The notes: generated from the letters alone by a model not told the origin. Positions 5,751 through 19,678 are shown, numbered from the stretch's first letter. The stretch is 19,757 bases of DNA from an uncultured Comamonadaceae bacterium (GCA_937868695.1 CALMMY010000464.1:1-19757); one strand, 5' to 3'. A program made the numbers and translations.

Positions 5751-7090
5751 CAGAACACCTGCACGTTGGAGACTTCACCGTTTTCAGCCACTTTCCAGGA
5801 ATGGATGGCATTCTGGTGATAGACGGACTTGGTGCCGCGCACAGCACGCAGCTGGTTCATCTTGGGCTGCACATAGCCGGTGCTGTCGATGGCACGGCTT
5901 TGCAGGATGGCGGGCTTGCCGTCCCACACCCAGTCGATGTTGAAGCGGGTCAGTGCCTTGGGCAGCACGGGGCCTTCCAGGCGGGCGGTGCGCCAGTTGC
6001 GGCCACCGTCCACGCTCACGTCCACGCGCTTGATGGTGCCGCGCCCTGACCAGGCCAGGCCGCTGATGTTGTAGAAGCCTTTGTCCAGCAAAGTCTGGCT
6101 GCCAGAAGGCGTGGTGATCACGCTCTTGCATTCCTGGATGCCGGTGTACTGGCGGTGCGTGCCATCGGGCATGTGGTCGATGTAATGCACGGCTTCGTCT
6201 TTGGCAGCGTACTTCTGGTCACCCACTTCGATGCGGCGCAGGTACTTGACCCAGCTCACGCCCTGGATGCCTGGCACCACCAGGCGCAGCGGGTAGCCGT
6301 TTTCGGGGCGCAGCATCTCGCCGTTCATGGCCCAGGCCACGATCACGTCGTCCATTGCACGCTCGATGTCGATGGTGCGGGTCATGGACGATCCGTCGGC
6401 ACCCTCGGCCAGAACCACTTTGGCATTCTTTTTGTCGTAGCCGCACATTTCCAGCAGGGTAGACAGCAGCACGCCTGTGAACTCGGAGCAGCTCAGCATG
6501 CCGTGCGAGTACTGCACCGACGACACCGCCACGTTGCCCCACTCGGTGGCGGAATTGGCACCGCACTCGATGAAGTGGATGCGCGACACGCTCGGCAAAC
6601 GCATCAGGTCGTCCATGGTGAACACGCGCTGGCGCTTGACCATGCCGTTGATCATCAGGCGGTGCTTGGATGGGTCGATGTCCCACCAGCCCTGGTGGTG
6701 GCGCTCGAAGTGCAAGCCACTGGGTGTGATGATGCCGAACAGGCCTTGCAGTGGCGTGAAGCTGACCGATGCCTGGGGCACGCGGGTCAGGCCAGGGCTT
6801 TCGCGGCGCTGCAACGCGGCTTCCCACTTACTGGGCACGCCGTAGGGGTTCATGGCCACAGGCAGACCCAGACCACCCGTGTGCTCGGGCATTTTCAAAA
6901 TGACATCTTCGCCCTCTGCCGCCGCAGCCACACCGGCTTTGGCAGCTGCCGCCACACCCGCCCCCATCGCCAGGGCCTTGCCCATGAAACTGCGGCGCGC
7001 CTTGCGGGCCACTTCAAGCTTTTCAGGGCTCAGGTTGTTTTCAGGCGCGGGAAGAATGCGCCCGATGACTTCACTCAGGTCTTTAGACAC
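5750..7090 (-). CDS. soxC: SoxC, sulfane dehydrogenase molybdopterin subunit (sulfite-oxidase family).
   Basis: Tat signal ARRSFMGKALAMGAGVAAAA. Moco-binding sulfite-oxidase-fold motifs (HFIECGANS..., DVIVAWAMNGE..., YPLRLVVPG...). I chose the GTG start at 7090 (VSKDLSEV...) because it is preceded by a strong AGAAGGAAA RBS. The ORF-track ATG at 7138 has no SD and is the alternative. Stop TGA at 5752-5750. Confidence 0.88.
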   Translation of the reverse strand: MSKDLSEVIGRILPAPENNLSPEKLEVARKARRSFMGKALAMGAGVAAAAKAGVAAAAEGEDVILKMPEHTGGLGLPVAMNPYGVPSKWEAALQRRESPGLTRVPQASVSFTPLQGLFGIITPSGLHFERHHQGWWDIDPSKHRLMINGMVKRQRVFTMDDLMRLPSVSRIHFIECGANSATEWGNVAVSSVQYSHGMLSCSEFTGVLLSTLLEMCGYDKKNAKVVLAEGADGSSMTRTIDIERAMDDVIVAWAMNGEMLRPENGYPLRLVVPGIQGVSWVKYLRRIEVGDQKYAAKDEAVHYIDHMPDGTHRQYTGIQECKSVITTPSGSQTLLDKGFYNISGLAWSGRGTIKRVDVSVDGGRNWRTARLEGPVLPKALTRFNIDWVWDGKPAILQSRAIDSTGYVQPKMNQLRAVRGTKSVYHQNAIHSWKVAENGEVSNVQVF

Positions 7091-7505
7091 TTGTGGTTTC
7101 CTTCTCTCTGGAGGGGTTTGCAAATAAATCGGTGGCATTCAGCGCCACAGGTGGTGAGTCGGGCGTGCCAAAGTAATCGGCAGAGCCGGTGTCTTGTCCG
7201 AGTCGGCGGTCAATGTGCGTGGAAACGATCCGGCACAGATCAACAAACATCTGGTCGGCAACTTTGTAAAAAACCTGGTTGCCCTGCCTGCGGCGCGACA
7301 ACATGCCAACCTGGTACATCAAACCCAGGTGGCGCGACACATTTGCCTGCGCCAGTCCTGTGATGGCAATGATGCTGTTCACGCTGCGCTCTTCGCTGCA
7401 AATGGAGTGCAGGATCTTTAATCTTGCAGGCTCAGACAGAACGCTGAAGTAGCGTGCTGCGCCCTCAAAAACGTGCTGCATATTGGTTGAAGAGTCTGTA
7501 TTCAT
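7083..7505 (-). CDS. soxR: ArsR/SmtB-family winged-helix transcriptional regulator (SoxR-type), about 140 aa.
   Basis: HTH region ...LSEPARLKILHSICSEERSVNSIIAITGLAQANVSRHLGLMYQVGMLSRRRQGNQVFYKV... is characteristic of the ArsR family. It is first in the sox operon and overlaps the soxC start by 8 nt. I chose ATG 7505 (MNTDSSTNMQHV...); there is no clear SD, and Met at 7481 is an alternative. The upstream part of the ORF-track frame crosses the promoter region and I discarded it. Confidence 0.72.
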   Translation of the reverse strand: MNTDSSTNMQHVFEGAARYFSVLSEPARLKILHSICSEERSVNSIIAITGLAQANVSRHLGLMYQVGMLSRRRQGNQVFYKVADQMFVDLCRIVSTHIDRRLGQDTGSADYFGTPDSPPVALNATDLFANPSREKETTSV

Positions 7506-7518
7506 GGTGATAGGCTGT

Positions 7519-7560
7519 CTCAAACTATATGAGTGTTTGAGAATATAGTGATGAGTGTAA
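7519..7560. promoter_or_regulatory. Putative SoxR operator: overlapping inverted repeats CTCAAAC-N9-GTTTGAG and ACTATAT-N12-ATATAGT, plus a direct repeat ATGAGTGT spaced 22 bp apart.
   Basis: Seen directly at 7519-7541, 7524-7549, and at 7529-7536 and 7551-7558. This is the AT-richest stretch of the window. It lies 14 bp upstream of the soxR ATG, inside the soxR / cytochrome c divergent region. Confidence 0.4.
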
Positions 7561-7705
7561 ACCCTGAAAATCGCGACAAACTGACAGATTCGCCGTCGTT
7601 TGACCCGCTCAGCAAGGCATGCGTGAGCACGAGAATGCAGCACATCCATGAGATGAACATCAGGGTTAACACGACTTGTCCACCGATGTTGGATCGCTAA
7701 CATCC

Positions 7706-8095: not shown

Positions 8096-9382
8096 ATGAA
8101 ACGTCGTCAATTTGTACAAACGCTGGGTGCGGGTTCTGCACTGGGCGCTGCGGGCCTCATGAGCGGCTGTGCCACCACGGGTGGCGGAGCCAGCATTGGC
8201 AAAGTGGTGGTCATTGGCGGGGGCTACGGTGGAGCCACGGCGGCCAAATACCTGCGCCTGTTCTCCGAAGGCACCGTGGATGTGACCCTGGTCGAGCCGA
8301 ATGCCGCCTTTGTGTCCTGCCCCATTTCCAACCTGGTGGTGGGCGGCTACAAAACCATGGCCGACATCACCACGCCTTATGACAACCTGAGCAAACGCCA
8401 CGGCGTGAAGCTGGTCAAAGACATGGTCACCGCCATCGACCCCGACAAAAAAGTGGTCAAGCTGGCCAGCGGCGGCGAGTTGCCCTTTGACCGCGTGATC
8501 GTGTCGCCCGGCGTGGACTTCATGTACGACACCCTGCCCGGCCTGGCCTCTGCCGCAGCCAAAGACAAGGTGCTGCACGCCTGGAAAGCCGGCGCACAGA
8601 CGGTGGCCTTGCGCAAGCAGCTCGAAGCCATGCCCGATGGCGGTGTGTACGCACTGTCCATTCCCCGTGCGCCCTACCGCTGCCCACCCGGCCCCTACGA
8701 GCGTGCCTGCCTGGTCGCCAACTACTTCAAGGCCGCCAAGCCCAAGAGCAAAGTGGTGATTTTTGATGCCAACGACGACATCCAGTCCAAAAAAGGGCTG
8801 TTCATGAAGGCCTGGGCCGATCACTACAAAGGCATCATCGAATACCGCCCCAAGCACAACGTGGTGGATGTGGATGCCGCCACCAACACGCTGAAGTTCG
8901 AGTTCAACGACGACTTCAAAGCCAGCGTGGCCAACGTCATCCCCGACATGCGTGCGGGCGACATCGCTGTGAAAACCGGCCTGGCCACCGCCAACAAACG
9001 CTGGTGCGAAGTGGACTTCCTCAGTTTCGAGTCCATCGCGGTCAAAAACGTGCATGTGCTGGGCGACTCCATCCAGATCGCGCCCGGCATGCCCAAGTCA
9101 GGCCACATGGCCAACCAGCATGGCAAGGTGTGTGCTGCTGCGGTGGTCAATCTGCTGCAAGGCAAAGCCCCACCATCGTTGCCCATCTACGCCAACACCT
9201 GCTACAGCTTCGTGACCGATGAAGACGTGGTGCATGTGGCCAGCGTTCACCGCTACGACGCAGAAAAGAAAACCATGCTGACCGTTCCCGGTTCAGGTGG
9301 CGTGTCTGTGGCGGCCAGCGAGCTGGAAGGCCGCTACGCCCACGCCTGGGCGCGCAACATCTGGGCCGATTCACTGGCATAA
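8096..9382 (+). CDS. fccB: Flavocytochrome c sulfide dehydrogenase flavoprotein subunit (FccB/SoxF-like, FAD-dependent pyridine nucleotide-disulfide oxidoreductase fold), 428 aa.
   Basis: Tat signal MKRRQFVQTLGAGSALGAAGLMSG. Rossmann FAD motif VVVIGGGYGGATAAKYL. Conserved Cys in AFVSCPISN, the position of covalent FAD attachment in FccB. Redox-active Cys pair region RCPPGPYERAC. Confidence 0.88.
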   Translation: MKRRQFVQTLGAGSALGAAGLMSGCATTGGGASIGKVVVIGGGYGGATAAKYLRLFSEGTVDVTLVEPNAAFVSCPISNLVVGGYKTMADITTPYDNLSKRHGVKLVKDMVTAIDPDKKVVKLASGGELPFDRVIVSPGVDFMYDTLPGLASAAAKDKVLHAWKAGAQTVALRKQLEAMPDGGVYALSIPRAPYRCPPGPYERACLVANYFKAAKPKSKVVIFDANDDIQSKKGLFMKAWADHYKGIIEYRPKHNVVDVDAATNTLKFEFNDDFKASVANVIPDMRAGDIAVKTGLATANKRWCEVDFLSFESIAVKNVHVLGDSIQIAPGMPKSGHMANQHGKVCAAAVVNLLQGKAPPSLPIYANTCYSFVTDEDVVHVASVHRYDAEKKTMLTVPGSGGVSVAASELEGRYAHAWARNIWADSLA

Positions 9383-9442
9383 GCAGGCTGGCCCAGTTCA
9401 CACGCATTCCATCAGCATCCAGTTTCAGTCAAAGGCCAGGAA

Positions 9443-10066
9443 GTGAGTCATTCAAGTTTTATCAGCCGCACGGTCATCGTCGGTTTGACATCGTTGGTTG
9501 CCTTGGGTTGGAGCGCCAGCTCCTGGGCACAGGCCGATGAGGCACGCGCCAAAAAAATTGCCGGTGGTTCATGCTTTCTGTGCCACGGCGCACAGGGCGA
9601 ATCCACCAGCGAAATTTTTCCCCGCCTGGCGGGCCAGAATGCCGCCTACGTGGCCAAGCAGCTGCTGGCGTTTCAGACAGGTGCCCGCAAAAGCACGGCC
9701 ATGGCCGACATGACCGCCAAGCTGACACCCGATGAAATGATGGCACTGGGTCGTTACTACCAGAAGATGGAACTGCCGCGCGAAGAGCCGAAAGAACCCC
9801 AACTGGCGGCAATGGGCCACTACATCTACCACAACGGCAACAAGTTCAGCGGTGTGCCCGCTTGCGCGGCCTGCCACGGCGTGACCGCAGAAGGGGCCGA
9901 CAACCTGCCCCGCCTGGGCAGGCAAATTGCGGGCTATCTGGAGAACCAGCTCAAGCTGTTCAACAAGCGCGACCGCACCAACGACAACGCGGTGATGCAC
10001 ATGGTGGCCGAAAAAATGACCCCGCTTGAAATGCACGCTGTGGCGGAATACCTCAGCGGCAAATAA
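9443..10066 (+). CDS. Diheme cytochrome c4-type protein, 207 aa.
   Basis: Two CxxCH motifs (CFLCHG, CAACHG), one in each half. Signal peptide ...LVALGWSASSWAQA. GTG start at 9443 with AAAGG/AGGAA upstream. Stop TAA at 10064-10066. Confidence 0.78.
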   Translation: MSHSSFISRTVIVGLTSLVALGWSASSWAQADEARAKKIAGGSCFLCHGAQGESTSEIFPRLAGQNAAYVAKQLLAFQTGARKSTAMADMTAKLTPDEMMALGRYYQKMELPREEPKEPQLAAMGHYIYHNGNKFSGVPACAACHGVTAEGADNLPRLGRQIAGYLENQLKLFNKRDRTNDNAVMHMVAEKMTPLEMHAVAEYLSGK

Positions 10067-10139: not shown

Positions 10140-11333
10140 TCAGCCTGCGCGGCGGGCCAGCACTTCGAAGGCGGGCAGGGTCTTGCCTTCCAGCACTTCC
10201 AGGAAGGCACCGCCGCCGGTGCTGATGTAGCCCACTTGCTTTTCAATGCCGTACTTGGCAATGGCCGCCAGCGTGTCGCCACCACCGGCGATGCTGAAGC
10301 CCGCGCTGTCGGCAATGGCCTGGGCTATTCCCCTGGTGCCGTTTTCGAACTTGGCGAACTCGAACACGCCCACGGGGCCGTTCCAGACGATGGTGCCGGC
10401 CTTCATCAGCTGCGCGGCCAGCTTGGCAGCGGTTTCGGGGCCGATGTCCAGAATCAGGTCGTCATCGGCCACATCGGTGGCGGCCTTGACGGTGGCTTCA
10501 GCGTCGGGGCTGAAGGCTTTGGCGCACACCACGTCGGTGGGAATCGGCACCTCTGCACCACGTGCTTTCATGGCCTCGATCACGGCCTTGGCTTCACCCA
10601 CCAGGTCGGGTTCGGCCAGGCTCTTGCCGATGCTCAGGCCCGCAGCCAGCATGAAGGTGTTGGCGATGCCGCCGCCGACGATCAGGCCATCAACCTTGCT
10701 GGAGAGGGCTTGCAGGATGGTGAGCTTGGTGCTGACTTTGCTGCCCGCCACGATGGCGATCAGTGGGCGCTGTGGGTTGGCCAGGGCTTTGCCGATGGCA
10801 TCCATTTCAGCGGCCAGCAGTGGGCCTGCGCAGGCGATGGGTGCGGTTTCGGCGATGCCGTAGGTGGTGCCTTCTGCGCGGTGGGCGGTGCCAAAGGCAT
10901 CGTGGACGAAGATGTCGCACAGCTTGCCCAGCTTTTCGGCCAGTTCGGGTTTGTTTTTCTTCTCGCCTTTGTTCAGGCGGCAGTTTTCGAGCATGACGAC
11001 TTCGCCGGGGGCGACGCTGAAGTTGCCGTCCACCCAGTCGGCCACCAGGCGCACGGGTGCGCCCAGCAGTTCGCTCATGCGGGCGGCCACGGGGGCCAGG
11101 CTGTCTTCGGGCTTGAACTCGCCTTCGGTGGGGCGGCCCAGGTGGCTGGTCACCATGACGGCGGCACCGGCTTCCAGTGCCATCTTCACGGCGGGAATGC
11201 TGGCGCGGATGCGGGTGTCTTCGGTGATCTCACCGGCATCGTTCTGCGGTACGTTCAGGTCGGCGCGGATGAACACGCGCTTGCCCGCAGCCTGACCGCT
11301 GGCGATGACATCGGAAAAACGGATGAATTTCAT
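10140..11333 (-). CDS. pgk: Phosphoglycerate kinase, copy 1, 397 aa.
   Basis: N-terminus [29 protein letters not shown] is the classic PGK N-terminal substrate-binding motif. Full-length PGK fold motifs are present (e.g. GGGDT... region, GGGAFLE). AAGGAG RBS 7 nt before ATG 11333. Stop TGA at 10142-10140. Confidence 0.93.
10140..11333 (-). repeat. Direct repeat copy A, the whole pgk CDS. It differs from copy B at 9 positions, all within the terminal 132 nt and 84 nt.
   Basis: By-eye alignment with 18479-19672 finds mismatches only at 10146, 10176, 10178 and three more sites up to 10271, then at 11250, 11295 and 11304. Positions 10272-11249 are identical. The flanking sequence outside the CDS is unrelated. 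Confidence 0.85.
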
Positions 11334-11366
11334 GGTTTAGCTCCTTGGTGTTGTGAAAAACGATCA

Positions 11367-11395
11367 AACAATGATTGGAATACCCCGATTGTCAA
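11367..11395 (-). promoter_or_regulatory. Candidate promoter for pgk copy 1: perfect -35 TTGACA (11395-11390), 17-nt spacer, weak -10 ATTGTT (11372-11367).
   Basis: Read on the minus strand within the 83-bp gap between the HK stop and the pgk ATG. The -10 is poor, so this is tentative. Confidence 0.25.
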
Positions 11396-11416
11396 CCCTC
11401 AGCCTGACGACAGCAC

Positions 11417-13498
11417 TCAGCCCAGCACGGGCAGGCACAGGCTGAAGCTGACTCCATCGGCCTGGTTGCTGGCGGTGATGGTGCCGCCCATCTTGGCCAT
11501 GTAGGTTTTGGCCACAAACAAGCCCTGCCCCCGGCTGCCTGCCGCTGCCGCATCGGGCTGGTCTGACACGCCGTACTCGAAGATTTTTTCCAGCATATCG
11601 GCGGGAATGAGTGGCCCGTGGTTGTGGATGGTGACGGTGGCATGGTGCCCGTCGGTGGCCAGGCGCAGCGTGATGGCAGTGCCGGGGCTGCGGTGGCGCT
11701 CGGCATTGGCCAGCAGGTGGCCGAACACATCTTCCAGCGGGTATTCGTCGGCCCGCACCCAGACGGGCTGGTTGCAGCCACTGCACACCACATCGGCAAT
11801 GCCCGCGTTCTCGGCCACGTTGCGCACAAACCTGGCCAGATCCACGGCGGCCACCTCGAACTGGCTGCGCTCAAACGCTTCGCTGGGGCTGGCGCTGCCG
11901 TAGAGCACGCGCACCGCCTGCTGCATGCGGCTGATGTAGCGGTGGCTGGGATCATCGGCCTGGCCGTGCAGGGCCAGCAGGCTTTGCAGCGGCGACATGA
12001 TTTCGTGGCCCACGGCGTGCCACATGTCTTTTTCCTGCCCGGCGCGGATTTTTTCGCGCCCGGCATCCTCGCGCACCCGGCGCAGCAGCTCGTTGAGCGC
12101 GGTGGCCAGCAAGCCCAGCTCGTCATGGCCGCGCAGGTCGGCCAGCTGGTAGCGCTCCAGCCCGCCCTCGGTCTGCACCGATTGCGACAGCCCCCGCGTG
12201 CGCCGCGTCAGGCGGGCAATGCGGTGGATCAGCCCCACCTCGATCACCAGCCAGGCCAGCGCGATGGCCCCCAGCATGGCCCCCACAAACCACGACAGGC
12301 GCGTGGCCACCACCGACAGCGTCTGGTTGACGCTGCGGGCATCGCCGCGCAGTTGCAGCTCGTAACTGCCCAGCGGCGTGCTGATGACCTCGTTCAGCGC
12401 CACCTCCGGGGTGTCGATCTGCTGGACCGGCAGCTTCAGGATGAGGCGGGTGAGCAGGGGCGACGAGGTTTCGTGCGCCTCGTCACGCCCGGCAATGCGG
12501 GCAATCTCCTGTGCTGCGCCCGGTGTGCCGCCGTGACGGCGGATCACCAGACTTTCACCGGGTAGCAGCAGACCGGCCAGCTGGTCCAGCGCAAAGGGAG
12601 CCAGGCCATCGGTGCGCTGGCTGTCGAACAGCGCTGGCCCGTCGCCGGGCGGCAGCGCCTCGATGCGCACCTCGAACTGATCCAGATCGGGCGGCGGCCA
12701 CACCGGCCTGGCCTGCTGGAACAGGGCCTCGCGCAGCGCCTCAACGGGCAGGCGCAGCGAGAAAAAGGCTTTTTTCGGGCAGCTGTCGCGGTCGGTAGCC
12801 TCAGCGTCTGCGCACGCCCCGCTCTGCCACACCCAGCCACGGAACTCGCGCACCGGGCGGGTACCGGTGTAGTCGCGGCCAGGCAACTCGGCATAGCCGG
12901 TGAAGCGGCCACGCAAGCCCTCGTTGCGGGCATTGGCCGCTGCGGGCAAGGCCTCGAACGGGGCCAGCCACTGCCAGCTCTGCCCGCGCAGGCTGACGCG
13001 CACACGCAGGCGGTGGGCCGTGTCCAGAAACTCGTCGCCGATGCGGTGGGCTTGCAGCGGCCCGCTGGCAAAGGTACCGGCGGCGTAGATGAAACCACCA
13101 GCCCAGGGGTTGTTGCCAATAGCCACGCACAGACTGGCATCGCCGGGGTAATGCACCAGGCAACCCGACATTTCAATGGCGCTGCGCACCTTGCTCTGGT
13201 CATCGAAATCGAGGGCCGCGTACGGCAGCACCACCGGGCGGCCACGCGCTGCCGCCGCCAGGTTCCAGCCGGGGTTGAGCAGCGCCAGCTGGCCCGCCGG
13301 GTGGTGCAGCCGGGCCAGAATCTGCTCGCGGGTTTTGTCCAGGCTGTGGCGGTAGTTGTCGTAGCTGCGCTGCTTTTCTTCCTGCAACACCGTCACCGTC
13401 ATGGCCAGCACCGTCAGCGCCAGCAGCAGAAACGCCGTGCGTAGCAGGATGCGCAGCCGGAACGAGGCCAGCCAGGCCAGCAGCGCCCTGGCCGTCAT
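11417..13498 (-). CDS. Sensor histidine kinase, 693 aa. It has two TM helices flanking a periplasmic domain of about 360 aa with no family I can recognise, then HAMP-like, HisKA and HATPase_c domains.
   Basis: TM1 LLRTAFLLLALTVLAMTVTVL. TM2 LSWFVGAMLGAIALAWLVIEVGLI. H-box MWHAVGHEIMSPLQSL. ATPase G-box ...GQGLFVAKTYMAKMGGTI. The ATG overlaps the RR stop (ATGA). Confidence 0.85.
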   Translation of the reverse strand: MTARALLAWLASFRLRILLRTAFLLLALTVLAMTVTVLQEEKQRSYDNYRHSLDKTREQILARLHHPAGQLALLNPGWNLAAAARGRPVVLPYAALDFDDQSKVRSAIEMSGCLVHYPGDASLCVAIGNNPWAGGFIYAAGTFASGPLQAHRIGDEFLDTAHRLRVRVSLRGQSWQWLAPFEALPAAANARNEGLRGRFTGYAELPGRDYTGTRPVREFRGWVWQSGACADAEATDRDSCPKKAFFSLRLPVEALREALFQQARPVWPPPDLDQFEVRIEALPPGDGPALFDSQRTDGLAPFALDQLAGLLLPGESLVIRRHGGTPGAAQEIARIAGRDEAHETSSPLLTRLILKLPVQQIDTPEVALNEVISTPLGSYELQLRGDARSVNQTLSVVATRLSWFVGAMLGAIALAWLVIEVGLIHRIARLTRRTRGLSQSVQTEGGLERYQLADLRGHDELGLLATALNELLRRVREDAGREKIRAGQEKDMWHAVGHEIMSPLQSLLALHGQADDPSHRYISRMQQAVRVLYGSASPSEAFERSQFEVAAVDLARFVRNVAENAGIADVVCSGCNQPVWVRADEYPLEDVFGHLLANAERHRSPGTAITLRLATDGHHATVTIHNHGPLIPADMLEKIFEYGVSDQPDAAAAGSRGQGLFVAKTYMAKMGGTITASNQADGVSFSLCLPVLG

Positions 13499-14199
13499 CG
13501 ACCGCTGCCCTCCACCCAGCGGAAACCGCGCATGGGCACGTTTTCGATGCGGTCAAAGTGTTCGTCCAGCTCGCGGAAAGCCTCGCGGATGGTGCTGATG
13601 TGCTTGCGGATGTTGTCGCGGTTGCGCCCGCTTTTGACCACGGCAAACAGCTCGTCGTAAGACACCACCTCGCCCCGGCGCTGGTACAGGGTGGACAGGA
13701 TGCGCTGCGCCGTCAGCGGCAGGTTGACCCGCTTGCCGCACCACAGCGGCGTGCTCTGGCGCAGGGGGTCAAGGGCCAGCTCGTGGGCGGCGGGCTCGGG
13801 GTGGCGGGGGGGGCTGCGCTCGCGCCCGGCACGCAGGATTTCGAGGAATGTCTCGATGAAGTCGGCCTCCTCGAAGGCGGTTTTTTGCAGGTAATCCCAG
13901 GCATCCAGCGCTTTCATGATGCTGCGGTAGATGGCCGCCGGCATGGCCGACACCACCAGCACCGGCGTGCCGCGCCCGGTCTTGTTGATGGCGTTGATGA
14001 TGGCCACGCCCGCGTGGCGCTCGCGCCCCAGCTCGATGTCCAGCGTCACCAGCGCGTAATCCTCACGGCCAATGGCGGCCTCGGCATCGTCGCGGTTGAA
14101 CCACTGATCCACCACGATGCCGGGCCGGGCGGACTCGATCCAGTGCTTCAGCTGGTTGCTGGTGGGAATGTCGTCCTCGATGACGGCAACTCGGGTCAT
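13495..14199 (-). CDS. OmpR/PhoB-family response regulator (REC plus winged-helix Trans_reg_C), 234 aa.
   Basis: True start MTRVAVIEDD at ATG 14199 with AAGGAG RBS. Phospho-acceptor context VTLDIEL. Conserved K in MKALDAWDYLQK. C-terminal wHTH LTAQRILSTLYQRRGEVVSYDELFAVV...IENVPMRGFRWV. The ORF-track frame extended 28 codons upstream, which I rejected. Confidence 0.85.
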   Translation of the reverse strand: MTRVAVIEDDIPTSNQLKHWIESARPGIVVDQWFNRDDAEAAIGREDYALVTLDIELGRERHAGVAIINAINKTGRGTPVLVVSAMPAAIYRSIMKALDAWDYLQKTAFEEADFIETFLEILRAGRERSPPRHPEPAAHELALDPLRQSTPLWCGKRVNLPLTAQRILSTLYQRRGEVVSYDELFAVVKSGRNRDNIRKHISTIREAFRELDEHFDRIENVPMRGFRWVEGSGR

Positions 14200-14489
14200 G
14201 GGCAGCTCCTTGAGGGCATCTCGGGGGCCTCTCGTGCAGGCGAGACGGCGGGTCGGTCGGCAAAGTATCCCGGTTTTTGCCACCCGGCAGCGGTGGCCGG
14301 TGTGAGTGTTTCTTCACGCCCGTGAAGCGTCTGGCAGTGCGGCGAACCAAAGTCGCCTCGCGGCGGCATGGCTTGCTCCGGCCCTCCCGTCGCACCATGA
14401 CAGCCATGCCAACGCACTGGTTGCCACCGTCTTCCGACCAGCGCCCAGACGATGCCAACCAACCGAAGACACCTCAACCGGAGAACACC

Positions 14490-15773
14490 ATGAGCGAACG
14501 TTTTGAACACATCCTGAACACCCTGGGCCACGGGCTCAGCCGCAGCGGCCAGGCCCTTGGCAGCGGAGCCATCACCGTTGGCCGAACCATCCACGGCGCA
14601 CGCCGCAGCCTGATTGCCATCGCCGTGGTGGGCCTGTGCGGCTATGCCGCCTACCGGCACCCGCCCATGCAGGGTGTGGAGCGCGGCGAGGTGGCTGTGC
14701 GCATCAACCAGCTCACTGGCAACAGCGCCGAAATGCGCGAAGGCGCGGTGCTGGTCATCCCCGGCCTGCACGAGCTGCGCCGCTTCAGCCTGCGCGACCA
14801 GGTGTACCGCCCCGAGGCAGGCCAGGAAGCCCCGTTCCAGAGCATCGAAGGCCTGTCGCTGGGCGTGGACGTGACGGTGCGCTACGCACTGGACCCGGCC
14901 CGCATTGCCGCCGTGGCCCGCAACCTGCCCGACGACATCGGCCACCAGGTGGTGGAGCCCGCCGTGCAGGGCGTGCTGTACAAAACCTTCTCGCGCTACA
15001 CGGTGCGCGAGATTTTTTCAGCCAAGCGCCAGGAAATCCGCGACAGCATCGAAGCCGAAGTGCGCACCGCCCTCGACCGGGACGGCATCCGGCTCCAGGC
15101 CGTGCTGATTGGGCGGGTCGATCTGCCTGACGACTACCGCGCCGGCATGGACAGGATGCTGGCCGAAGAACTGTCGAGCGAAAAGATGCGCTACACGCTG
15201 GATCTGAAAGAAAAGCAAGTCAAGCAAAGCGATCTGGAAGGCGAAGCCGACAAGGTGCGCCGCGAAAAGGCCGCAGAAGCCGCAGGCCAGGAACAGATCA
15301 TTGCCGCCAAGGCCCAGGCCGAGGCCATGAAGCACATCCTGCCCTTCAAGCAAAAGCAGATCGAGCAGCGCGGCCTGGAGGCCGAGGCAGAAAAGGTGGC
15401 CCGCATCAAGAGCGCCGAAGCCAATGCCCAGGCCCGCCAGATCGAGGCCGTGGGCGAGGCCGAATCGCGCCGCAAGCTGGCCGATGCCGAAGCCTACCGC
15501 CAGGAACGCCTGGGCAAGATTGCCAGCGAGCAGCTGGCCCGCGATGGCGCACTTATCCAGCACAACCCGCTGCTGATCCAGAAGGCCATGGCCGACAAGC
15601 TGTCGGACAAGATCTCCGTGATCATCGCACCCACCCCCACCGATGGCGGCTTCATCGGTGCGGCCCTGCTGGGTACCAAGGCCACACCGCCCACACCGAC
15701 CGCCCAGCCACAGATGCCCATGCAGCCCCTGCTGCCCGCAGATGGCACCGACAACGGCCAGACCGAGCAGTGA
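14490..15773 (+). CDS. SPFH/band-7 (prohibitin/flotillin-like) membrane protein, 427 aa.
   Basis: GGAGAA RBS before ATG 14490 (MSERFEHIL...). N-terminal TM SLIAIAVVGLCGYAAY. SPFH core. A long Glu/Ala-rich coiled coil carries two tandem 36-aa repeats (DLEGEADKVRREKAAEAAGQEQIIAAKAQAEAMKHI and GLEAEAEKVARIKSAEANAQARQIEAVGEAESRRKL). Pro/Thr-rich tail. The ORF-track frame began 71 codons upstream with no SD. Confidence 0.85.
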   Translation: MSERFEHILNTLGHGLSRSGQALGSGAITVGRTIHGARRSLIAIAVVGLCGYAAYRHPPMQGVERGEVAVRINQLTGNSAEMREGAVLVIPGLHELRRFSLRDQVYRPEAGQEAPFQSIEGLSLGVDVTVRYALDPARIAAVARNLPDDIGHQVVEPAVQGVLYKTFSRYTVREIFSAKRQEIRDSIEAEVRTALDRDGIRLQAVLIGRVDLPDDYRAGMDRMLAEELSSEKMRYTLDLKEKQVKQSDLEGEADKVRREKAAEAAGQEQIIAAKAQAEAMKHILPFKQKQIEQRGLEAEAEKVARIKSAEANAQARQIEAVGEAESRRKLADAEAYRQERLGKIASEQLARDGALIQHNPLLIQKAMADKLSDKISVIIAPTPTDGGFIGAALLGTKATPPTPTAQPQMPMQPLLPADGTDNGQTEQ

Positions 15774-15816
15774 GCCTGCACACCCGTACCGCACCCGACT
15801 GCTGAAAGGACACACC

Positions 15817-17268
15817 ATGCTGGTCACCGCACTCGCCGCCATTGCCATCGTCACCCAGGACCAGAGTGCCCTGCGTGCTGCCCCCAGGGACTCCGCCGCA
15901 CAGCAGGCCATGTTCTGGCAGGGCGACACGCTGGAAATCCGGGGCGAAAAAGGCGACTTTCTCCAGGTGTACGACCACCGCCGCGAGCGCGGCGGCTATG
16001 TGCGCGCCAGCCAGGTGCGGGTGCAGCCGCTCACCCCCGAGGCAGCCCCCGACCTGTTGGGCACCGTGCGCTTTCTGAAAGACATGCCCGGCACCGAAGC
16101 CCTGGGCATGGCCTACGCCGCCGCCTACCTGCGGGCCGCACCGGCACCGGCCATCCACAGCGATGTGTTCGATGCACTCAGCGCCATGTCGGAGCGCCTG
16201 GCCAACCGCGCCACCGCAGGCCGCCCTGGCAAAGCCGGTGAAGCCCTGTCCGCCCACCTGGAAGTGGCGGCCAGCCACGGCGTGACCATGACCAGCTTCG
16301 AGCGCGACGGCCAGATTCAGCTGTGCCCGAATGGCGATGCGGCCCGGCGCGTGCTGGCCCTGCCCGCCACCGATTTGCAAAAAGCCCAGGCCGCCCTGTC
16401 GCTGACCCGGCACGAATGCGTGTCGCCCGCCCTCACGCCCACCGAACGCTTTGCCCTGGACAACTGGCGTGCCGAGGTGCTGGACAGGGTGCAGACCGCC
16501 CGCCTGCCCCCGGTGTGGCAAAACCGCCTGCACCTGCGCAAGGCGGGCGTGTGGGCCAGCCTGACCTACCAGCGGGCACGGCGCAGCGAGCCCGGCGCAC
16601 CCGCCGTTGCCGAAGCCGCCCACCGCGCCATTGACGCGCTGGCCGCCGCCAACCCCCAGGAGCTGATGGAAAGCGATGCCGCTGCCCGCAACGACGCGGC
16701 CATCCGCGTGGGGGCATCGCGCTGGGGTGCCGTGCCCGCCATCACACCCACAGCAACCCCACCCGCCCCCGGCAAGGACGGCAGACCCACCATCGTGCTG
16801 ACCGCCGGGGAACCGGGCGAAACCTGCGTCAACCTGGTCGATGCCACCCACGATGCCCGCCAGCCCCTGCTGCGGCGCTGCACCTGGGGCATCGTCTGGC
16901 AGGCATCGCTGGCCGTGTCACCCCAGGGCGATGCGCTGGCGCTGGCCGTGCAGCCGCTGGACCAGTGGCGCGAGATGTGGGTGTTCCGCCAGACAGGCAG
17001 CGGCAATGGCTGGCAGGTGGATGCCGTGCCACCGGGCACCGAGGCGGGTGCGCCGGGTTACATCGAATTTGCGGGCTGGGTGCCCAACACCCGGCTGATG
17101 CTGGCCGCCCGCGAGGTGCAGACCGGCGGCCGCCACCGCACCACCTTTGAAACCCTGCACCTGGCCACCCTGGCAACCGAAAAGCAGGCCGACCAGCCCT
17201 CCAGCCTGAGCGCCTTCTACCGCTGGCAGAACCCGCTGTGGAAGGCTGGCACCGTCAGTTTGCGCTGA
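15817..17268 (+). CDS. Hypothetical secreted protein, 483 aa, with N-terminal signal peptide and an SH3b-like domain. The remainder is unassigned.
   Basis: AAAGGA RBS 6 nt before ATG 15817. Signal-like MLVTALAAIAIVTQDQSALRAAP. SH3b-like region WQGDTLEIRGEKGDFLQVYDHRRERGGYVRASQVRV. Starts 43 bp downstream of the SPFH gene, so probably co-transcribed. Stop TGA at 17266-17268. Confidence 0.7.
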   Translation: MLVTALAAIAIVTQDQSALRAAPRDSAAQQAMFWQGDTLEIRGEKGDFLQVYDHRRERGGYVRASQVRVQPLTPEAAPDLLGTVRFLKDMPGTEALGMAYAAAYLRAAPAPAIHSDVFDALSAMSERLANRATAGRPGKAGEALSAHLEVAASHGVTMTSFERDGQIQLCPNGDAARRVLALPATDLQKAQAALSLTRHECVSPALTPTERFALDNWRAEVLDRVQTARLPPVWQNRLHLRKAGVWASLTYQRARRSEPGAPAVAEAAHRAIDALAAANPQELMESDAAARNDAAIRVGASRWGAVPAITPTATPPAPGKDGRPTIVLTAGEPGETCVNLVDATHDARQPLLRRCTWGIVWQASLAVSPQGDALALAVQPLDQWREMWVFRQTGSGNGWQVDAVPPGTEAGAPGYIEFAGWVPNTRLMLAAREVQTGGRHRTTFETLHLATLATEKQADQPSSLSAFYRWQNPLWKAGTVSLR

Positions 17269-17278
17269 GGGCTGCGGT

Positions 17279-18346
17279 TCAGGCCACACGCGGAGCCAGT
17301 TCGCCCTTGTCATAACGGCGCTGCATGGTCTCCAGGCTGTACACCTGTGTGATGCGGCTGGCCATGCCTGCGCTGCCGAAGGCTTCGTAGCGGGCGGCGC
17401 AGATGCCTTTCATGGCCTTGGTGGCTTCCTTGTAGAACTTGCGGGGATCGAAGTTCTTGCGATCCTGCGCCAGGTGCTGGCGAATGGCGCCGGTGCTGGC
17501 CATGCGCAGGTCGGTGTCGATGTTGACTTTGCGCACGCCGTTCTTGATACCTTCGACGATTTCCTCCACCGGCACGCCGTAGGTCTGGCCCATGTCGCCG
17601 CCGTAACTGTTGATGATGGCCAGCCAGTCTTCGGGCACGCTGGAGCTGCCGTGCATCACCAGATGCACATCGGGAATGCGGGCGTGGATTTCCTTTACGC
17701 GGTCAATCCGCAGCACCTTGCCGGTGGGCTTGCTGGTGAATTTGTAGGCACCGTGGCTGGTGCCGATGGCGATGGCCAGCGCGTCCACCTGGGTTTTGGC
17801 CACAAAGTCGACGGCCTCGTCGGGGTCGGTCAGCAGCGCGGAGTGATCCAGCACGCCTTCGGCCCCGTGGCCGTCTTCTTCACCGGCCTTGCCGGTTTCC
17901 AGGCTGCCCAGGCAGCCCAGCTCGCCTTCCACCGACACGCCGCAGGCATGGGCCAGGTCGGCCACATGGCGGGTGACGCGCACGTTGTAGTCGTAACTGG
18001 CGGGGGTTTTGCCGTCTTCCAGCAGGCTGCCGTCCATCATCACCGACGAAAACCCCGACTGGATGGAGCGGAAACACACGCCGGGCGACGCGCCGTGATC
18101 CTGGTGCATGCACACGGGGATGTGGGGGTACATCTCGATGGCGGCCAGAATCAGGTGGCGCAAAAACGGCTCGCCCGCATACGAACGCGCCCCGGCCGAG
18201 CCTTGCAGGATGACGGGCGAGTTGACGGCATCGGCCGCCTGCATGATGGCCTGCACCTGCTCCATGTTGTTGACGTTGAAAGCAGGCAGGCCGTAGCCGT
18301 TTTCAGCTGCGTGGTCCAGCAGTTGACGAAGAGAAATCAGGGCCAT
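17279..18346 (-). CDS. fba: Fructose-1,6-bisphosphate aldolase, class II (Fba/CbbA type), 355 aa.
   Basis: Class II aldolase signatures: N-terminal ...[14 protein letters not shown], metal/His motifs HQDHG and HGSSSV, and ...[19 protein letters not shown] before ATG 18346. Stop TGA at 17281-17279. Confidence 0.92.
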
Positions 18347-18478: not shown

Positions 18479-19672
18479 TCAGCCAGCGCGGCGGGCCAGC
18501 ACTTCGAAGGCGGGTAAGGTCTTGCCTTCCAGCACTTCCAGGAAAGCACCGCCGCCGGTGCTGATGTAGCCCACCTGCTTTTCAATGCCGTACTTGGCAA
18601 TGGCCGCCAACGTGTCGCCACCACCGGCGATGCTGAAGCCCGCGCTGTCGGCAATGGCCTGGGCTATTCCCCTGGTGCCGTTTTCGAACTTGGCGAACTC
18701 GAACACGCCCACGGGGCCGTTCCAGACGATGGTGCCGGCCTTCATCAGCTGCGCGGCCAGCTTGGCAGCGGTTTCGGGGCCGATGTCCAGAATCAGGTCG
18801 TCATCGGCCACATCGGTGGCGGCCTTGACGGTGGCTTCAGCGTCGGGGCTGAAGGCTTTGGCGCACACCACGTCGGTGGGAATCGGCACCTCTGCACCAC
18901 GTGCTTTCATGGCCTCGATCACGGCCTTGGCTTCACCCACCAGGTCGGGTTCGGCCAGGCTCTTGCCGATGCTCAGGCCCGCAGCCAGCATGAAGGTGTT
19001 GGCGATGCCGCCGCCGACGATCAGGCCATCAACCTTGCTGGAGAGGGCTTGCAGGATGGTGAGCTTGGTGCTGACTTTGCTGCCCGCCACGATGGCGATC
19101 AGTGGGCGCTGTGGGTTGGCCAGGGCTTTGCCGATGGCATCCATTTCAGCGGCCAGCAGTGGGCCTGCGCAGGCGATGGGTGCGGTTTCGGCGATGCCGT
19201 AGGTGGTGCCTTCTGCGCGGTGGGCGGTGCCAAAGGCATCGTGGACGAAGATGTCGCACAGCTTGCCCAGCTTTTCGGCCAGTTCGGGTTTGTTTTTCTT
19301 CTCGCCTTTGTTCAGGCGGCAGTTTTCGAGCATGACGACTTCGCCGGGGGCGACGCTGAAGTTGCCGTCCACCCAGTCGGCCACCAGGCGCACGGGTGCG
19401 CCCAGCAGTTCGCTCATGCGGGCGGCCACGGGGGCCAGGCTGTCTTCGGGCTTGAACTCGCCTTCGGTGGGGCGGCCCAGGTGGCTGGTCACCATGACGG
19501 CGGCACCGGCTTCCAGTGCCATCTTCACGGCGGGAATGCTGGCGCGGATGCGGGTGTCTTCGGTGATCTCACCGGCATCGTTCTGCGGCACGTTCAGGTC
19601 GGCGCGGATGAACACGCGCTTGCCCGCAGCCTGGCCGCTGGCAATGACATCGGAAAAACGGATGAATTTCAT
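18479..19672 (-). repeat. Direct repeat copy B, the pgk CDS within the gap-pgk-fba context.
   Basis: See copy A. Same orientation, 8339 bp centre-to-centre. Confidence 0.85.
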
Positions 19673-19678
19673 GACCAT
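18479..19678 (-). CDS. pgk: Phosphoglycerate kinase, copy 2. The protein is identical to copy 1 over the 397 shared residues.
   Basis: Same PGK sequence as copy 1. I prefer the start at ATG 19678 (MVMKFIRF...) because GGAG sits 8 nt upstream. ATG 19672 (MKFIRF) is the alternative. The ORF-track frame extends further into the gap 3-prime end, which I rejected. Stop TGA at 18481-18479. Confidence 0.9.

What the first reader, a model, noticed from the sequence alone, without database searches (positions are those of the whole stretch)
11417..17268. Uncharacterised signalling/envelope module: periplasmic-sensing HK plus OmpR-type RR, divergent from an SPFH (flotillin-like) protein plus a secreted SH3b-domain protein
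Two operons share a 290-bp divergent control region (14200-14489). On the minus strand the response regulator and histidine kinase are translationally coupled (ATGA). The kinase has a periplasmic domain of about 360 aa with no motif I can assign to Cache, PBP, PAS or NIT families. On the plus strand the SPFH/band-7 protein has a tandem-repeat Glu/Ala coiled coil. It is followed 43 bp later by a 483-aa signal-peptide protein whose only recognisable part is an N-terminal SH3b-like fold. SPFH proteins usually pair with NfeD-type partners; here the partner is a secreted protein of unknown function. The whole module lies between the sox/c-type cytochrome genes and the Calvin/glycolytic fba-pgk-gap genes, inside the pgk direct repeats. 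It may sense a periplasmic cue such as a sulfur species or envelope state and control the neighbouring membrane-organising pair or the flanking sox/cbb-like genes. It is the best candidate in this window for a system without a described function.
Basis: partly seen in the sequence, partly recalled or inferred. Interest (0 to 1): 0.62.

Follow-up and report, generated by a model that had tools for sequence, protein, structure and literature searches.

The report
Envelope sensor controlling an SPFH gene pair
A conserved but unstudied four-gene unit of Betaproteobacteria, in which a two-component sensor that resembles a known cell-wall-damage sensor appears to switch on a membrane-scaffold (SPFH) protein and its cell-wall-binding partner.

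Summary
The four genes are real and sit at the stated coordinates. They form a conserved module. The SPFH gene lies directly upstream of the 483-aa gene (X) in 69 of 69 informative species loci. The response-regulator/kinase operon lies divergently next to them in 48 of 57, mostly Betaproteobacteria. A 16-bp element, GTGARNNTTYNTTCAC (window 14302-14317), occurs once per locus. Where the module is split it is duplicated in front of both operons. It is absent from gammaproteobacterial loci that lack the kinase. It is therefore the likely operator of the regulator.

Neither unknown domain matches any sequence family, but both gave confident models. The kinase sensor is a CBM9/DOMON-like beta-sandwich in a PDC-like module. 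This is the design reported for PghK, the Shewanella peptidoglycan-damage sensor. X is SH3b + TPR-like repeats + a beta-domain, with no solved whole-protein counterpart. The SPFH protein is prohibitin/HflK-like and probably faces the periplasm. It is not flotillin-like.

The sulfur/sox/Calvin-cycle link is not supported, because flanking genes differ between genomes. X has no canonical signal peptide here, although its gammaproteobacterial orthologues do.

Best reading: an autoregulated envelope or cell-wall stress circuit. It is a new variant of a known kind. Interest is moderate.

The parts
11417..13498 (-). Sensor histidine kinase, 693 aa. Layout: TM1 at about 13-41, a periplasmic sensor at about 39-408, TM2 at about 396-428, a weak HAMP, H-box His498, then HATPase_c.
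   Evidence: Orthologues of 52-81% identity occur in many genera.
12275..13384 (-). Periplasmic sensor domain of the HK (residues 39-408). It has an N-terminal long helix, a beta-sandwich (about residues 115-250) and a membrane-proximal alpha/beta module. There are four invariant Cys: 113, 124, 229 and 240.
13495..14202 (-). OmpR/PhoB-type response regulator, 235 aa, with Asp54. Its stop codon overlaps the HK start as ATGA.
   Evidence: The recognition-helix region VVKSGRNRDNIRKH(I/V)STIR is almost invariant across orthologues.
14203..14489 (.). Divergent control region, 287 bp.
   Evidence: No sigma-70 consensus promoter and no Rfam family were found.
14302..14317 (+). Conserved 16-bp element GTGAGTGTTTCTTCAC (family consensus GTGARNNTTYNTTCAC). 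It is the candidate operator of the RR.
   Evidence: One match in the window against 0.01 expected. It occurs once per locus, always in the same orientation. A PWM scan shows two copies in the split loci L016, L017, L018 and L045, one in front of each operon. A copy is retained upstream of SPFH in L021, L031, L036 and L067. None occurs in gammaproteobacterial loci without the TCS.
14490..15773 (+). SPFH/Band-7 protein, 427 aa. It has a basic N-tail (5 K/R), one short hydrophobic anchor (residues 40-55), the SPFH domain (63-228), an A/E/K/Q-rich coiled coil (about 226-345) and a conserved C-terminal block PLLIQK..DKLSDKISVIIAP.
   Evidence: Profile against the PDB: prohibitin-1/2 at E about 2e-6, stomatin only weakly. 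hflK model scored 18.6 bits against a 159-bit cutoff.
15817..17268 (+). Protein X, 483 aa. It has SH3b (residues 8-71), a TPR-like helical domain (74-305) and an all-beta domain plus C-terminal helices (325-483). Cys170, 201, 337 and 355 are invariant among close homologues and at least 90% conserved across 50 diverse homologues.

Best explanation
The four genes form one autoregulated envelope-stress circuit.

- The kinase reads a periplasmic cue through a large sensor built like that of PghK, the Shewanella peptidoglycan-damage sensor. This sensor is a CBM9/DOMON-like beta-sandwich inserted in a PDC-like module. The cue is most likely a cell-wall or other envelope glycan signal.
- The kinase phosphorylates the OmpR-type regulator.
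- The regulator binds the 16-bp element GTGARNNTTYNTTCAC in the shared control region. From there it controls both its own operon and the divergent SPFH-X operon.
- The SPFH protein is anchored N-in, so its SPFH domain and coiled coil face the periplasm and form an HflK/prohibitin-type oligomeric assembly.
- X is its dedicated periplasmic partner. It is proposed to bind peptidoglycan through SH3b and to bind proteins through its TPR-like and beta domains.

Shown here: gene content, the conserved linkage, the conserved cis-element and its behaviour in rearranged loci, and the predicted folds.

Inferred: that the regulator binds the element, the direction of regulation, the periplasmic location of SPFH and X in this organism, the nature of the cue, and any SPFH-X contact.
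For: Linkage:
- SPFH lies directly upstream of X in 69 of 69 informative GTDB species loci.
- RR-HK lies divergently adjacent in 48 of 57 loci and displaced but present in 4 more.
- Flanking genes are not conserved.

Cis-element:
- It is unique in the window (1 found, 0.01 expected).
- It occurs once per locus with fixed orientation.
- In the four split loci, one copy lies 61-64 nt upstream of the RR start and a second 192-214 nt upstream of the SPFH start.
- It persists upstream of SPFH where the TCS is not adjacent (L021, L031, L036, L067).
- No site above 12 bits occurs in Dokdonella, Tahibacter or Rudaea loci, which lack the TCS.
- The RR recognition helix is nearly invariant, in parallel with the invariant operator core.

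Sensor:
- The model is confident.
- PghK has a 393-aa sensor with the same two-subdomain plan. Its best modelling template (1i8a) is a CBM9 of Thermotoga maritima xylanase, like 1i82.
- PghKR is also divergently transcribed from an envelope-protein operon that it induces (bioRxiv 10.1101/2023.05.05.539549).
- The PghKR family models TIGR03787 and TIGR03785 are the best NCBIfam hit of the RR and among the three best of the HK.

Compartment:
- Gammaproteobacterial and other distant X orthologues carry canonical Sec signal peptides.
- X and the sensor each hold four conserved Cys, at least 90% conserved in X.
- The SPFH N-tail is basic in all orthologues.
- The SH3b fold is supported.
Against: - No experiment exists for any member of the module.
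- No sequence-level similarity links this sensor to PghK or TIGR03785. NCBIfam scores are far below the cutoffs. The kinship rests on fold and architecture alone.
- The element is a near-palindrome (GTGAA-N6-TTCAC). Well-studied OmpR/PhoB regulators bind direct repeats (own knowledge, not checked here).
- No promoter could be placed.
- In this organism and its beta relatives, X has only an 11-15-residue uncharged hydrophobic N-terminus that runs into SH3b strand 1. Export is therefore not demonstrated.
- The SPFH anchor is only about 16 residues long.
- The SPFH-X pair exists without the TCS in Xanthomonadales-type genomes. The TCS is therefore an add-on to the pair.
Confidence: 0.5

Rival explanations
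1. Same circuit, different cue. The DOMON/CBM9-like sandwich binds haem or another redox cofactor and reports periplasmic redox or respiratory state. The SPFH-X pair would then tune respiratory or other membrane complexes, as HflK-HflC does for aerobic respiration in E. coli.
Confidence: 0.15
2. SPFH and X are cytoplasmic in Betaproteobacteria. The short hydrophobic segment of SPFH would be a monotopic anchor, as in stomatin or flotillin, and X would stay inside the cell. The pair would then organise the inner face of the membrane.
For: X here has no charged n-region, and only about 8 residues precede the folded SH3b. The SPFH hydrophobic stretch is about 16 residues.
Against: Orthologues of 55-60% identity in Dokdonella, Tahibacter and Rudaea, and more distant ones, have textbook signal peptides ahead of the same SH3b strand. 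X has four Cys that are at least 90% conserved across 50 diverse homologues. SH3b domains are typically extracytoplasmic wall-binding modules (established knowledge). The basic N-tail of SPFH favours an N-in topology.
Confidence: 0.15
3. First reader's version. The kinase senses a sulfur species and regulates the flanking sox or Calvin/glycolytic genes.
For: In this window the module lies between soxBXAZY/soxC/FCSD and fba-pgk. One pgk copy follows the HK on the same strand after 83 bp, with no terminator-like site.
Against: The flanks are unrelated in other genomes, including non-sulfur-oxidisers. The conserved element occurs only inside the module. The module has higher G+C (0.65-0.72) than its flanks (about 0.60).
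Confidence: 0.03
4. The two operons are functionally unrelated neighbours. Alternatively, the unit is a mobile defence or conflict island that uses an SPFH protein.
For: SPFH-X occurs without the TCS in some Gammaproteobacteria. The module's G+C is raised relative to its flanks.
Against: Adjacency is kept across orders and survives rearrangement, with the element duplicated. PADLOC gave no meaningful hit. There is no plasmid copy. No integrase, tRNA or other mobility mark was seen.
Confidence: 0.04

Closest known systems
PghKR (SO2192/SO2193) of Shewanella oneidensis, the two-component system of the 'proteobacterial dedicated sortase system' (TIGR03785/TIGR03787)
   Same: Both have an RR-HK operon transcribed divergently from an operon of envelope proteins across a 230-290-bp region. 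Both kinases have two TM segments and an unusually large sensor (393 aa against about 370 aa). Each sensor is an alpha/beta subdomain carrying a CBM9-like beta-sandwich. Both regulators are OmpR-type. These family models are the best (RR) and among the best (HK) NCBIfam hits.
   Different: No sequence similarity was detected in the sensor domain, and scores are far below the family cutoffs. The partner operon here is SPFH + X, not pdsO, the VWA/ITI protein and sortase. No beta-lactamase or relV gene is present in this window. The stimulus has not been tested.
HflK/HflC (with FtsH) and mitochondrial prohibitins
   Same: All are SPFH proteins with an N-terminal anchor, followed by the SPFH domain and a long coiled coil. 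A periplasm- or intermembrane-space-facing orientation is inferred here. Prohibitins are the best solved relatives by profile search (E about 2e-6).
   Different: There is one SPFH gene here, not a K/C pair. The hflK model scored 18.6 bits against a 159-bit cutoff. No ftsH or hflX lies nearby. The partner is an SH3b-TPR-beta protein with no known counterpart.
SPFH-NfeD pairs (QmcA-YbbJ, YqiK-YqiJ, FloT-NfeD2)
   Same: Both are two-gene operons of an SPFH protein with a dedicated partner.
   Different: No NfeD or YqiJ gene is present. There is no Flot domain, unlike the true flotillin found in L016. The orientation is probably opposite.
Envelope-stress systems with a periplasmic accessory protein: CpxAR with the divergent cpxP, and ExoS-ChvI with the TPR-like inhibitor ExoR
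   Same: In both, a two-component system lies next to or controls a periplasmic protein that could feed back on the sensor. The divergent layout resembles cpxP-cpxRA. X has TPR-like repeats, as ExoR does (own knowledge; ExoR paper seen).
   Different: There is no sequence or fold relation of X to CpxP. The X-SPFH pair also exists without the kinase, so feedback cannot be its primary role.

Membership tests
Classical two-component system (membrane HK + OmpR/PhoB-type RR) | HK with an H-box histidine and an HATPase_c catalytic domain; RR with a receiver Asp and a winged-helix Trans_reg_C domain | tested here: met
   HATPase_c 59.5 bits; GHEIMSPL with His498; Response_reg 41.7 bits with Asp54; Trans_reg_C 31 bits.
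PghKR / TIGR03785-TIGR03787 (dedicated-sortase-system TCS) | Scores above the NCBIfam equivalog cutoffs | tested here: not met
   HK 56.7 bits against 612.2, with only residues 407-690 aligned. RR 56.9 bits against 335.7. Ten sensor domains searched alone gave no hit.
PghKR / TIGR03785-TIGR03787 (dedicated-sortase-system TCS) | Large periplasmic sensor with a CBM9-like beta-sandwich inserted in an alpha/beta subdomain | tested here: met
PghKR / TIGR03785-TIGR03787 (dedicated-sortase-system TCS) | Divergent partner operon encoding PdsO, a VWA/ITI-family sortase target and the sortase | tested here: not met
   The partner operon is SPFH + X in the window and in the 48 loci where the RR-HK operon lies divergently adjacent.
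PghKR / TIGR03785-TIGR03787 (dedicated-sortase-system TCS) | Activation by peptidoglycan-targeting antibiotics or a PBP1a defect | not testable with these tools
   This needs reporter or RNA assays.
SPFH / Band 7 superfamily | Band_7 domain above the Pfam gathering score | tested here: met
   73.8 bits against 23.6, residues 63-228.
   No Flot hit. A real flotillin in L016 hits Flot at 138.7 bits with YqiJ next to it. No NfeD gene lies in the module.
HflK/HflC | Match to the hflK or hflC equivalog models, with paired K and C genes | tested here: not met
   hflK 18.6 bits against 159.4. There is a single SPFH gene.
Bacterial SH3 (SH3b) domain, in X | SH3_3 profile match or an SH3b fold | tested here: met
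Sec-exported periplasmic protein (X) | N-terminal signal peptide with a charged n-region, an h-region and an AXA-type cleavage site ahead of the mature fold | tested here: inconclusive
   Absent in canonical form here: MLVTALAA, then SH3b strand 1. Present in gamma and distant orthologues. No SignalP-type predictor was available.

The most novel reading that the evidence does not exclude
The SPFH protein and X would form a previously unrecognised class of periplasm-facing SPFH assembly. Its dedicated client or tether would be a peptidoglycan-binding SH3b-TPR-propeller-like protein. This would physically couple an inner-membrane SPFH microdomain to the cell wall. In Betaproteobacteria a PghK-like wall-damage sensor would induce it. 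X might also feed back on the sensor, as ExoR or CpxP do on theirs.
Probability: 0.25. Interest if true: 0.75.

Novelty: new variant of a known kind. Interest (0 to 1): 0.55.

Why it matters
The roles of bacterial SPFH proteins are still poorly understood, and their described partners are NfeD proteins or FtsH. This module offers a third kind of partner, a wall-binding SH3b-TPR protein. It also offers a built-in regulatory handle: a dedicated two-component system with a sharply defined candidate operator. This makes the function directly testable with reporters and knockouts in culturable carriers such as Azoarcus sp. KH32C, Azovibrio restrictus, Propionivibrio soli, Undibacterium and Chitinimonas.

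The module also extends the CBM9-type sensor design of PghK to a second kinase family unrelated in sequence. If confirmed, that would suggest glycan-type sensing of envelope state is more widespread than the sortase-linked system.

Tried and rejected
- Pfam, NCBIfam and PDB sequence or profile searches of the HK sensor, of X and of the X C-terminal domain found nothing beyond SH3b.
- From the FSPDG-like motif in distant homologues I suspected PD40/TolB-type propeller blades in the X C-terminal domain. No Pfam hit supports this. Foldseek gave only weak propeller matches (probability 0.35-0.6). The domain stays unassigned.
- PADLOC gave no defence-system hit. No plasmid copy exists. No Rfam family or tRNA was found.
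- The sigma-70 promoter scan found none. I also read the conserved GGCATGGCTTGC block in the control region by eye against sigma-54 spacing. It does not fit: GG-N8-GC, not N10.
- A pspA-yqiJ-flotillin insert between the RR and SPFH in L016 looked like a functional clue. It occurs in that one genome only, so it is reported only as an aside.
- RR-operator covariation gave no signal. The recognition helix is nearly invariant, even in the Chitinimonas/Formivibrio group, whose element ends in TTCCG.
- The AFDB search that could have compared the sensor model with PghK directly was not available.
- The exact HK product was not on record in the contig index.
- A 2026 survey of Pseudomonas aeruginosa SPFH proteins mentions no such partner or regulator.
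Full report
**1. What is in the window**

The ORF map and translations give four genes.
- A 693-aa histidine kinase at 11417-13498, minus strand.
- A 235-aa OmpR-type response regulator at 13495-14202, minus strand.
- A 427-aa SPFH/Band-7 protein at 14490-15773, plus strand.
- A 483-aa protein, here called X, at 15817-17268, plus strand.

Pfam assigns the following.
- HK: HATPase_c (59.5 bits) and a sub-threshold HAMP.
- RR: Response_reg and Trans_reg_C.
- SPFH protein: Band_7 (73.8 bits).
- X: only a sub-threshold SH3_3 match (19.9 bits against a cutoff of 27).

The RR stop and the HK start overlap as ATGA. The divergent intergenic region is 287 bp. X starts 43 bp after the SPFH stop, with AAAGGA 6 nt upstream of its ATG.

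The catalytic residues are present: His498 in GHEIMSPL and Asp54 in the receiver. Hydropathy gives two transmembrane spans in the HK, with about 370 residues between them.

The flanks are:
- soxB, soxX, soxA, soxZ, soxY, a cytochrome c, a soxC-type molybdoenzyme, an ArsR regulator, a flavocytochrome-c sulfide dehydrogenase, another cytochrome c and pgk on the left;
- fba and a second pgk on the right.

**2. Corrections to the observation**

*Signal peptide.* X does not have a canonical signal peptide in this organism. Only MLVTALAA, with no charged residue, precedes the first SH3b strand of the confident model. The in-frame upstream sequence offers no better start. Orthologues in Dokdonella, Tahibacter and Rudaea, and more distant homologues, do carry textbook signal peptides plus a linker before the same strand. 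Four Cys are at least 90% conserved across 50 diverse homologues. I therefore infer a periplasmic location, but the window sequence does not show it.

*SPFH subtype.* The SPFH protein is not flotillin-like.
- It lacks the Flot domain, whereas a true flotillin in locus L016 matches that domain strongly.
- A profile of 30 orthologues finds prohibitin-1/2 as the best solved relatives (E about 2e-6), and stomatin only weakly.
- Its N-terminal tail is variable but consistently basic. A roughly 16-residue hydrophobic anchor follows.
- This argues for an N-in topology with the SPFH domain outside, as in HflK/HflC.

*Coiled coil.* The Glu/Ala 'tandem repeat' is an A/E/K/Q-rich coiled-coil region with two similar segments visible by eye in the protein. 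Tandem Repeats Finder sees no real DNA repeat.

**3. Is the module real?**

X and the HK each have very many close homologues, mostly in Rhodocyclales. Sources name the X homologues 'hypothetical protein' and the HK homologues histidine kinase. Many X and HK homologues list the same longest-contig length, which suggests shared contigs.

In Azoarcus sp. KH32C the same four genes lie in the same arrangement between unrelated neighbours.

A scan of one genome per GTDB species found 339 genomes that encode X. I retrieved 80 loci.
- SPFH lies directly upstream of X in 69 of 69 loci with enough sequence.
- RR-HK lies divergently adjacent in 48 of 57 loci, and is displaced but present in 4 more (L016, L017, L018, L045).
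- It is not seen within the flank in 5 loci. Two of these are Gammaproteobacteria (Dokdonella L070 and Tahibacter L079) with unrelated housekeeping neighbours.

The core is therefore the SPFH-X pair. In Betaproteobacteria (Rhodocyclales, Rhodoferax, Undibacterium, Duganella, Chitinimonas, Formivibrio and others) a dedicated two-component system is attached to it. An all-against-all profile search counts 569 clusters of X relatives at 50% identity.

**4. A shared cis-element**

K-mer counting on 54 non-redundant RR-SPFH intergenic regions revealed GTGAGTGTTT[C/G]TTCAC. The information profile shows invariant GTGA, TT, TTC and AC positions.

In the window it lies at 14302-14317. It is the only match to GTGARNNTTYNTTCAC with up to one mismatch, against 0.01 expected. 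Across the fetched loci it occurs once per locus and always in the same orientation relative to SPFH.

A PWM scan of all loci gives three natural experiments.
- In the four loci where the operons have been separated or inverted, there are two copies. One lies 61-64 nt upstream of the RR start and one 192-214 nt upstream of the SPFH start.
- In beta loci where the TCS is not adjacent (L021, L031, L036, L067), the SPFH-side copy is retained.
- In the gammaproteobacterial loci without the TCS, nothing scores above 12 bits.

The RR recognition-helix region is almost invariant across all orthologues, matching the invariant core of the element.

This is strong comparative evidence that the element serves both operons and belongs with this regulator. 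Binding itself is inferred. The element is a near-palindrome (GTGAA-N6-TTCAC). Well-studied OmpR-type regulators bind direct repeats (own knowledge, not checked here). No promoter could be placed. No Rfam family or tRNA is present.

**5. The two unknown domains**

Sequence methods see none of this.

*Protein X.* X gave a model with pLDDT 90.2 and pTM 0.88. It has SH3b (8-71), a helical repeat domain (74-305) and an all-beta domain with terminal helices (325-483).
- Foldseek against the PDB finds nothing at E<=0.001. It returns SH3b proteins plus a few weak beta-propeller matches.
- No family model exists for the protein.

**6. Comparison with what is known**

A literature search on DOMON-type kinase sensors led to PghKR of Shewanella oneidensis (bioRxiv 10.1101/2023.05.05.539549). 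The paper describes it as follows.
- PghK (SO2192) has two transmembrane segments and a 393-aa sensor.
- The sensor is made of an alpha/beta subdomain and a CBM9-like beta-sandwich. Its best modelling template was a CBM9 of Thermotoga maritima xylanase (1i8a), like my top hit 1i82.
- pghRK is divergently transcribed, across 232 bp, from the 'marine sortase' operon, which it induces.
- The system responds specifically to peptidoglycan-targeting antibiotics and to loss of PBP1a.

PghKR is the TIGR03785/TIGR03787 family. TIGR03787 is the best NCBIfam hit of my RR over its full length. TIGR03785 is among the three best hits of my HK. Both score far below the family cutoffs.

The window system therefore works like PghKR in architecture and layout, but it is not a member of that family. 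The cutoffs are not met, the sensor shows no sequence similarity, and the partner operon differs.

On the output side the closest analogues are HflK/HflC-FtsH and the prohibitins. The hflK model is not met and the partner is new. PADLOC gives no defence-system signal, and no plasmid carries the module.

**7. Most likely mechanism**

I propose an autoregulated envelope-stress circuit.
- The kinase senses a periplasmic cue, most plausibly derived from the cell wall or another glycan, through its CBM9-like sensor.
- The regulator acts at the 16-bp element on both promoters.
- The induced SPFH protein assembles on the periplasmic face of the inner membrane together with X. X's SH3b domain can hold peptidoglycan, and its TPR-like and beta domains can hold proteins.

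My confidence in each step is:
- about 0.8 that the TCS controls SPFH-X and itself through this element;
- about 0.7 that SPFH and X act in the periplasm;
- about 0.4 that the cue is wall damage;
- about 0.5 overall.

The main rivals are a haem or redox cue (0.15) and a cytoplasmic location for the pair in Betaproteobacteria (0.15).

**8. Novelty and score**

I found no description of this module, of the X family or of this SPFH subfamily in the searchable literature. Every database name I saw is generic.

The logic itself, a two-component system divergent from an envelope operon, is familiar. I therefore rate the module a new variant of a known kind. The new points are:
- a new class of SPFH partner;
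- a second kinase family, unrelated in sequence, with the PghK sensor design;
- a clean candidate operator.

Interest is 0.55. The module is a well-defined, testable handle on bacterial SPFH function and on cell-wall sensing. It is not a categorically new mechanism.

Noticed in passing
window 10140-11334 and 18479-19673: Two pgk copies match exactly from start codon to stop codon and diverge immediately outside. All 9 mismatches lie within about 130 nt of the ends, and the central 978 bp are identical. This looks like gene conversion between paralogues. Independent assemblies cover both junctions (HK-pgk-cytochrome c in L092; X-fba-pgk in L004), so it is not an artefact of this contig.
   Followed up: partly
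window 11334-11416: The left pgk copy follows the HK on the same strand after 83 bp, with no terminator-like site. It could be co-transcribed with the RR-HK operon in this organism only.
   Followed up: no
window 11500-17500 against the flanks: G+C is 0.65-0.72 across the module and about 0.60 in the sox region (0.62-0.65 in fba/pgk). This is compatible with lateral acquisition of the module or with codon-usage differences.
   Followed up: no
window 14312-14327: The 3' half of the conserved element (CTTCAC) forms a perfect inverted repeat with GTGAAG 4 bp downstream (CTTCAC-GCCC-GTGAAG). Many other loci have a weaker GTGAR/GGAAG element at the same place, possibly a third half-site.
   Followed up: partly
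window 14368-14400: A 10-codon upstream ORF (MACSGPPVAP) lies in the SPFH leader, inside a block (GGCGGCATGGCTTGCTC) shared by about 10 loci. Rhodoferax loci have ATT in place of the ATG, so it is probably not a conserved leader peptide.
   Followed up: partly
L016 2861-6412 (Azonexus sp. R2A61): A PspA/IM30 gene, a YqiJ (NfeD-like) gene and a true flotillin gene are inserted between the RR and SPFH. These membrane-stress genes sit inside the module. The insert was seen in this one genome only.
   Followed up: partly
L045 (Candidatus Accumulibacter meliphilus) and L067 (Ca. Accumulibacter phosphatis): In L045 the RR-HK operon lies downstream of X and convergent with it, and each operon keeps its own copy of the element. 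L067 keeps the SPFH-side copy and a partial HK match downstream of X before the contig ends. This suggests an inversion that preserved the regulatory sites.
   Followed up: partly
L028 and L063: Contigs that carry this proteobacterial module are labelled 'Actinomycetota bacterium' (L028) and 'uncultured Enterobacteriaceae' (L063). In L028, HK identity to the window is 72%. Both are probably mis-binned MAG contigs.
   Followed up: no
P0330 (983 aa): This looks like an SPFH-X fusion, but large parts are low-complexity Arg/Ala-rich sequence. It is most likely a frameshifted gene call and not a true fusion.
   Followed up: no
window 7083-7703 and 8096-10066: An ArsR-type regulator lies next to soxC, followed by a flavocytochrome-c sulfide dehydrogenase and a dihaem-type cytochrome c. 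This is an ordinary sulfur-oxidation context with its own candidate regulator.
   Followed up: no
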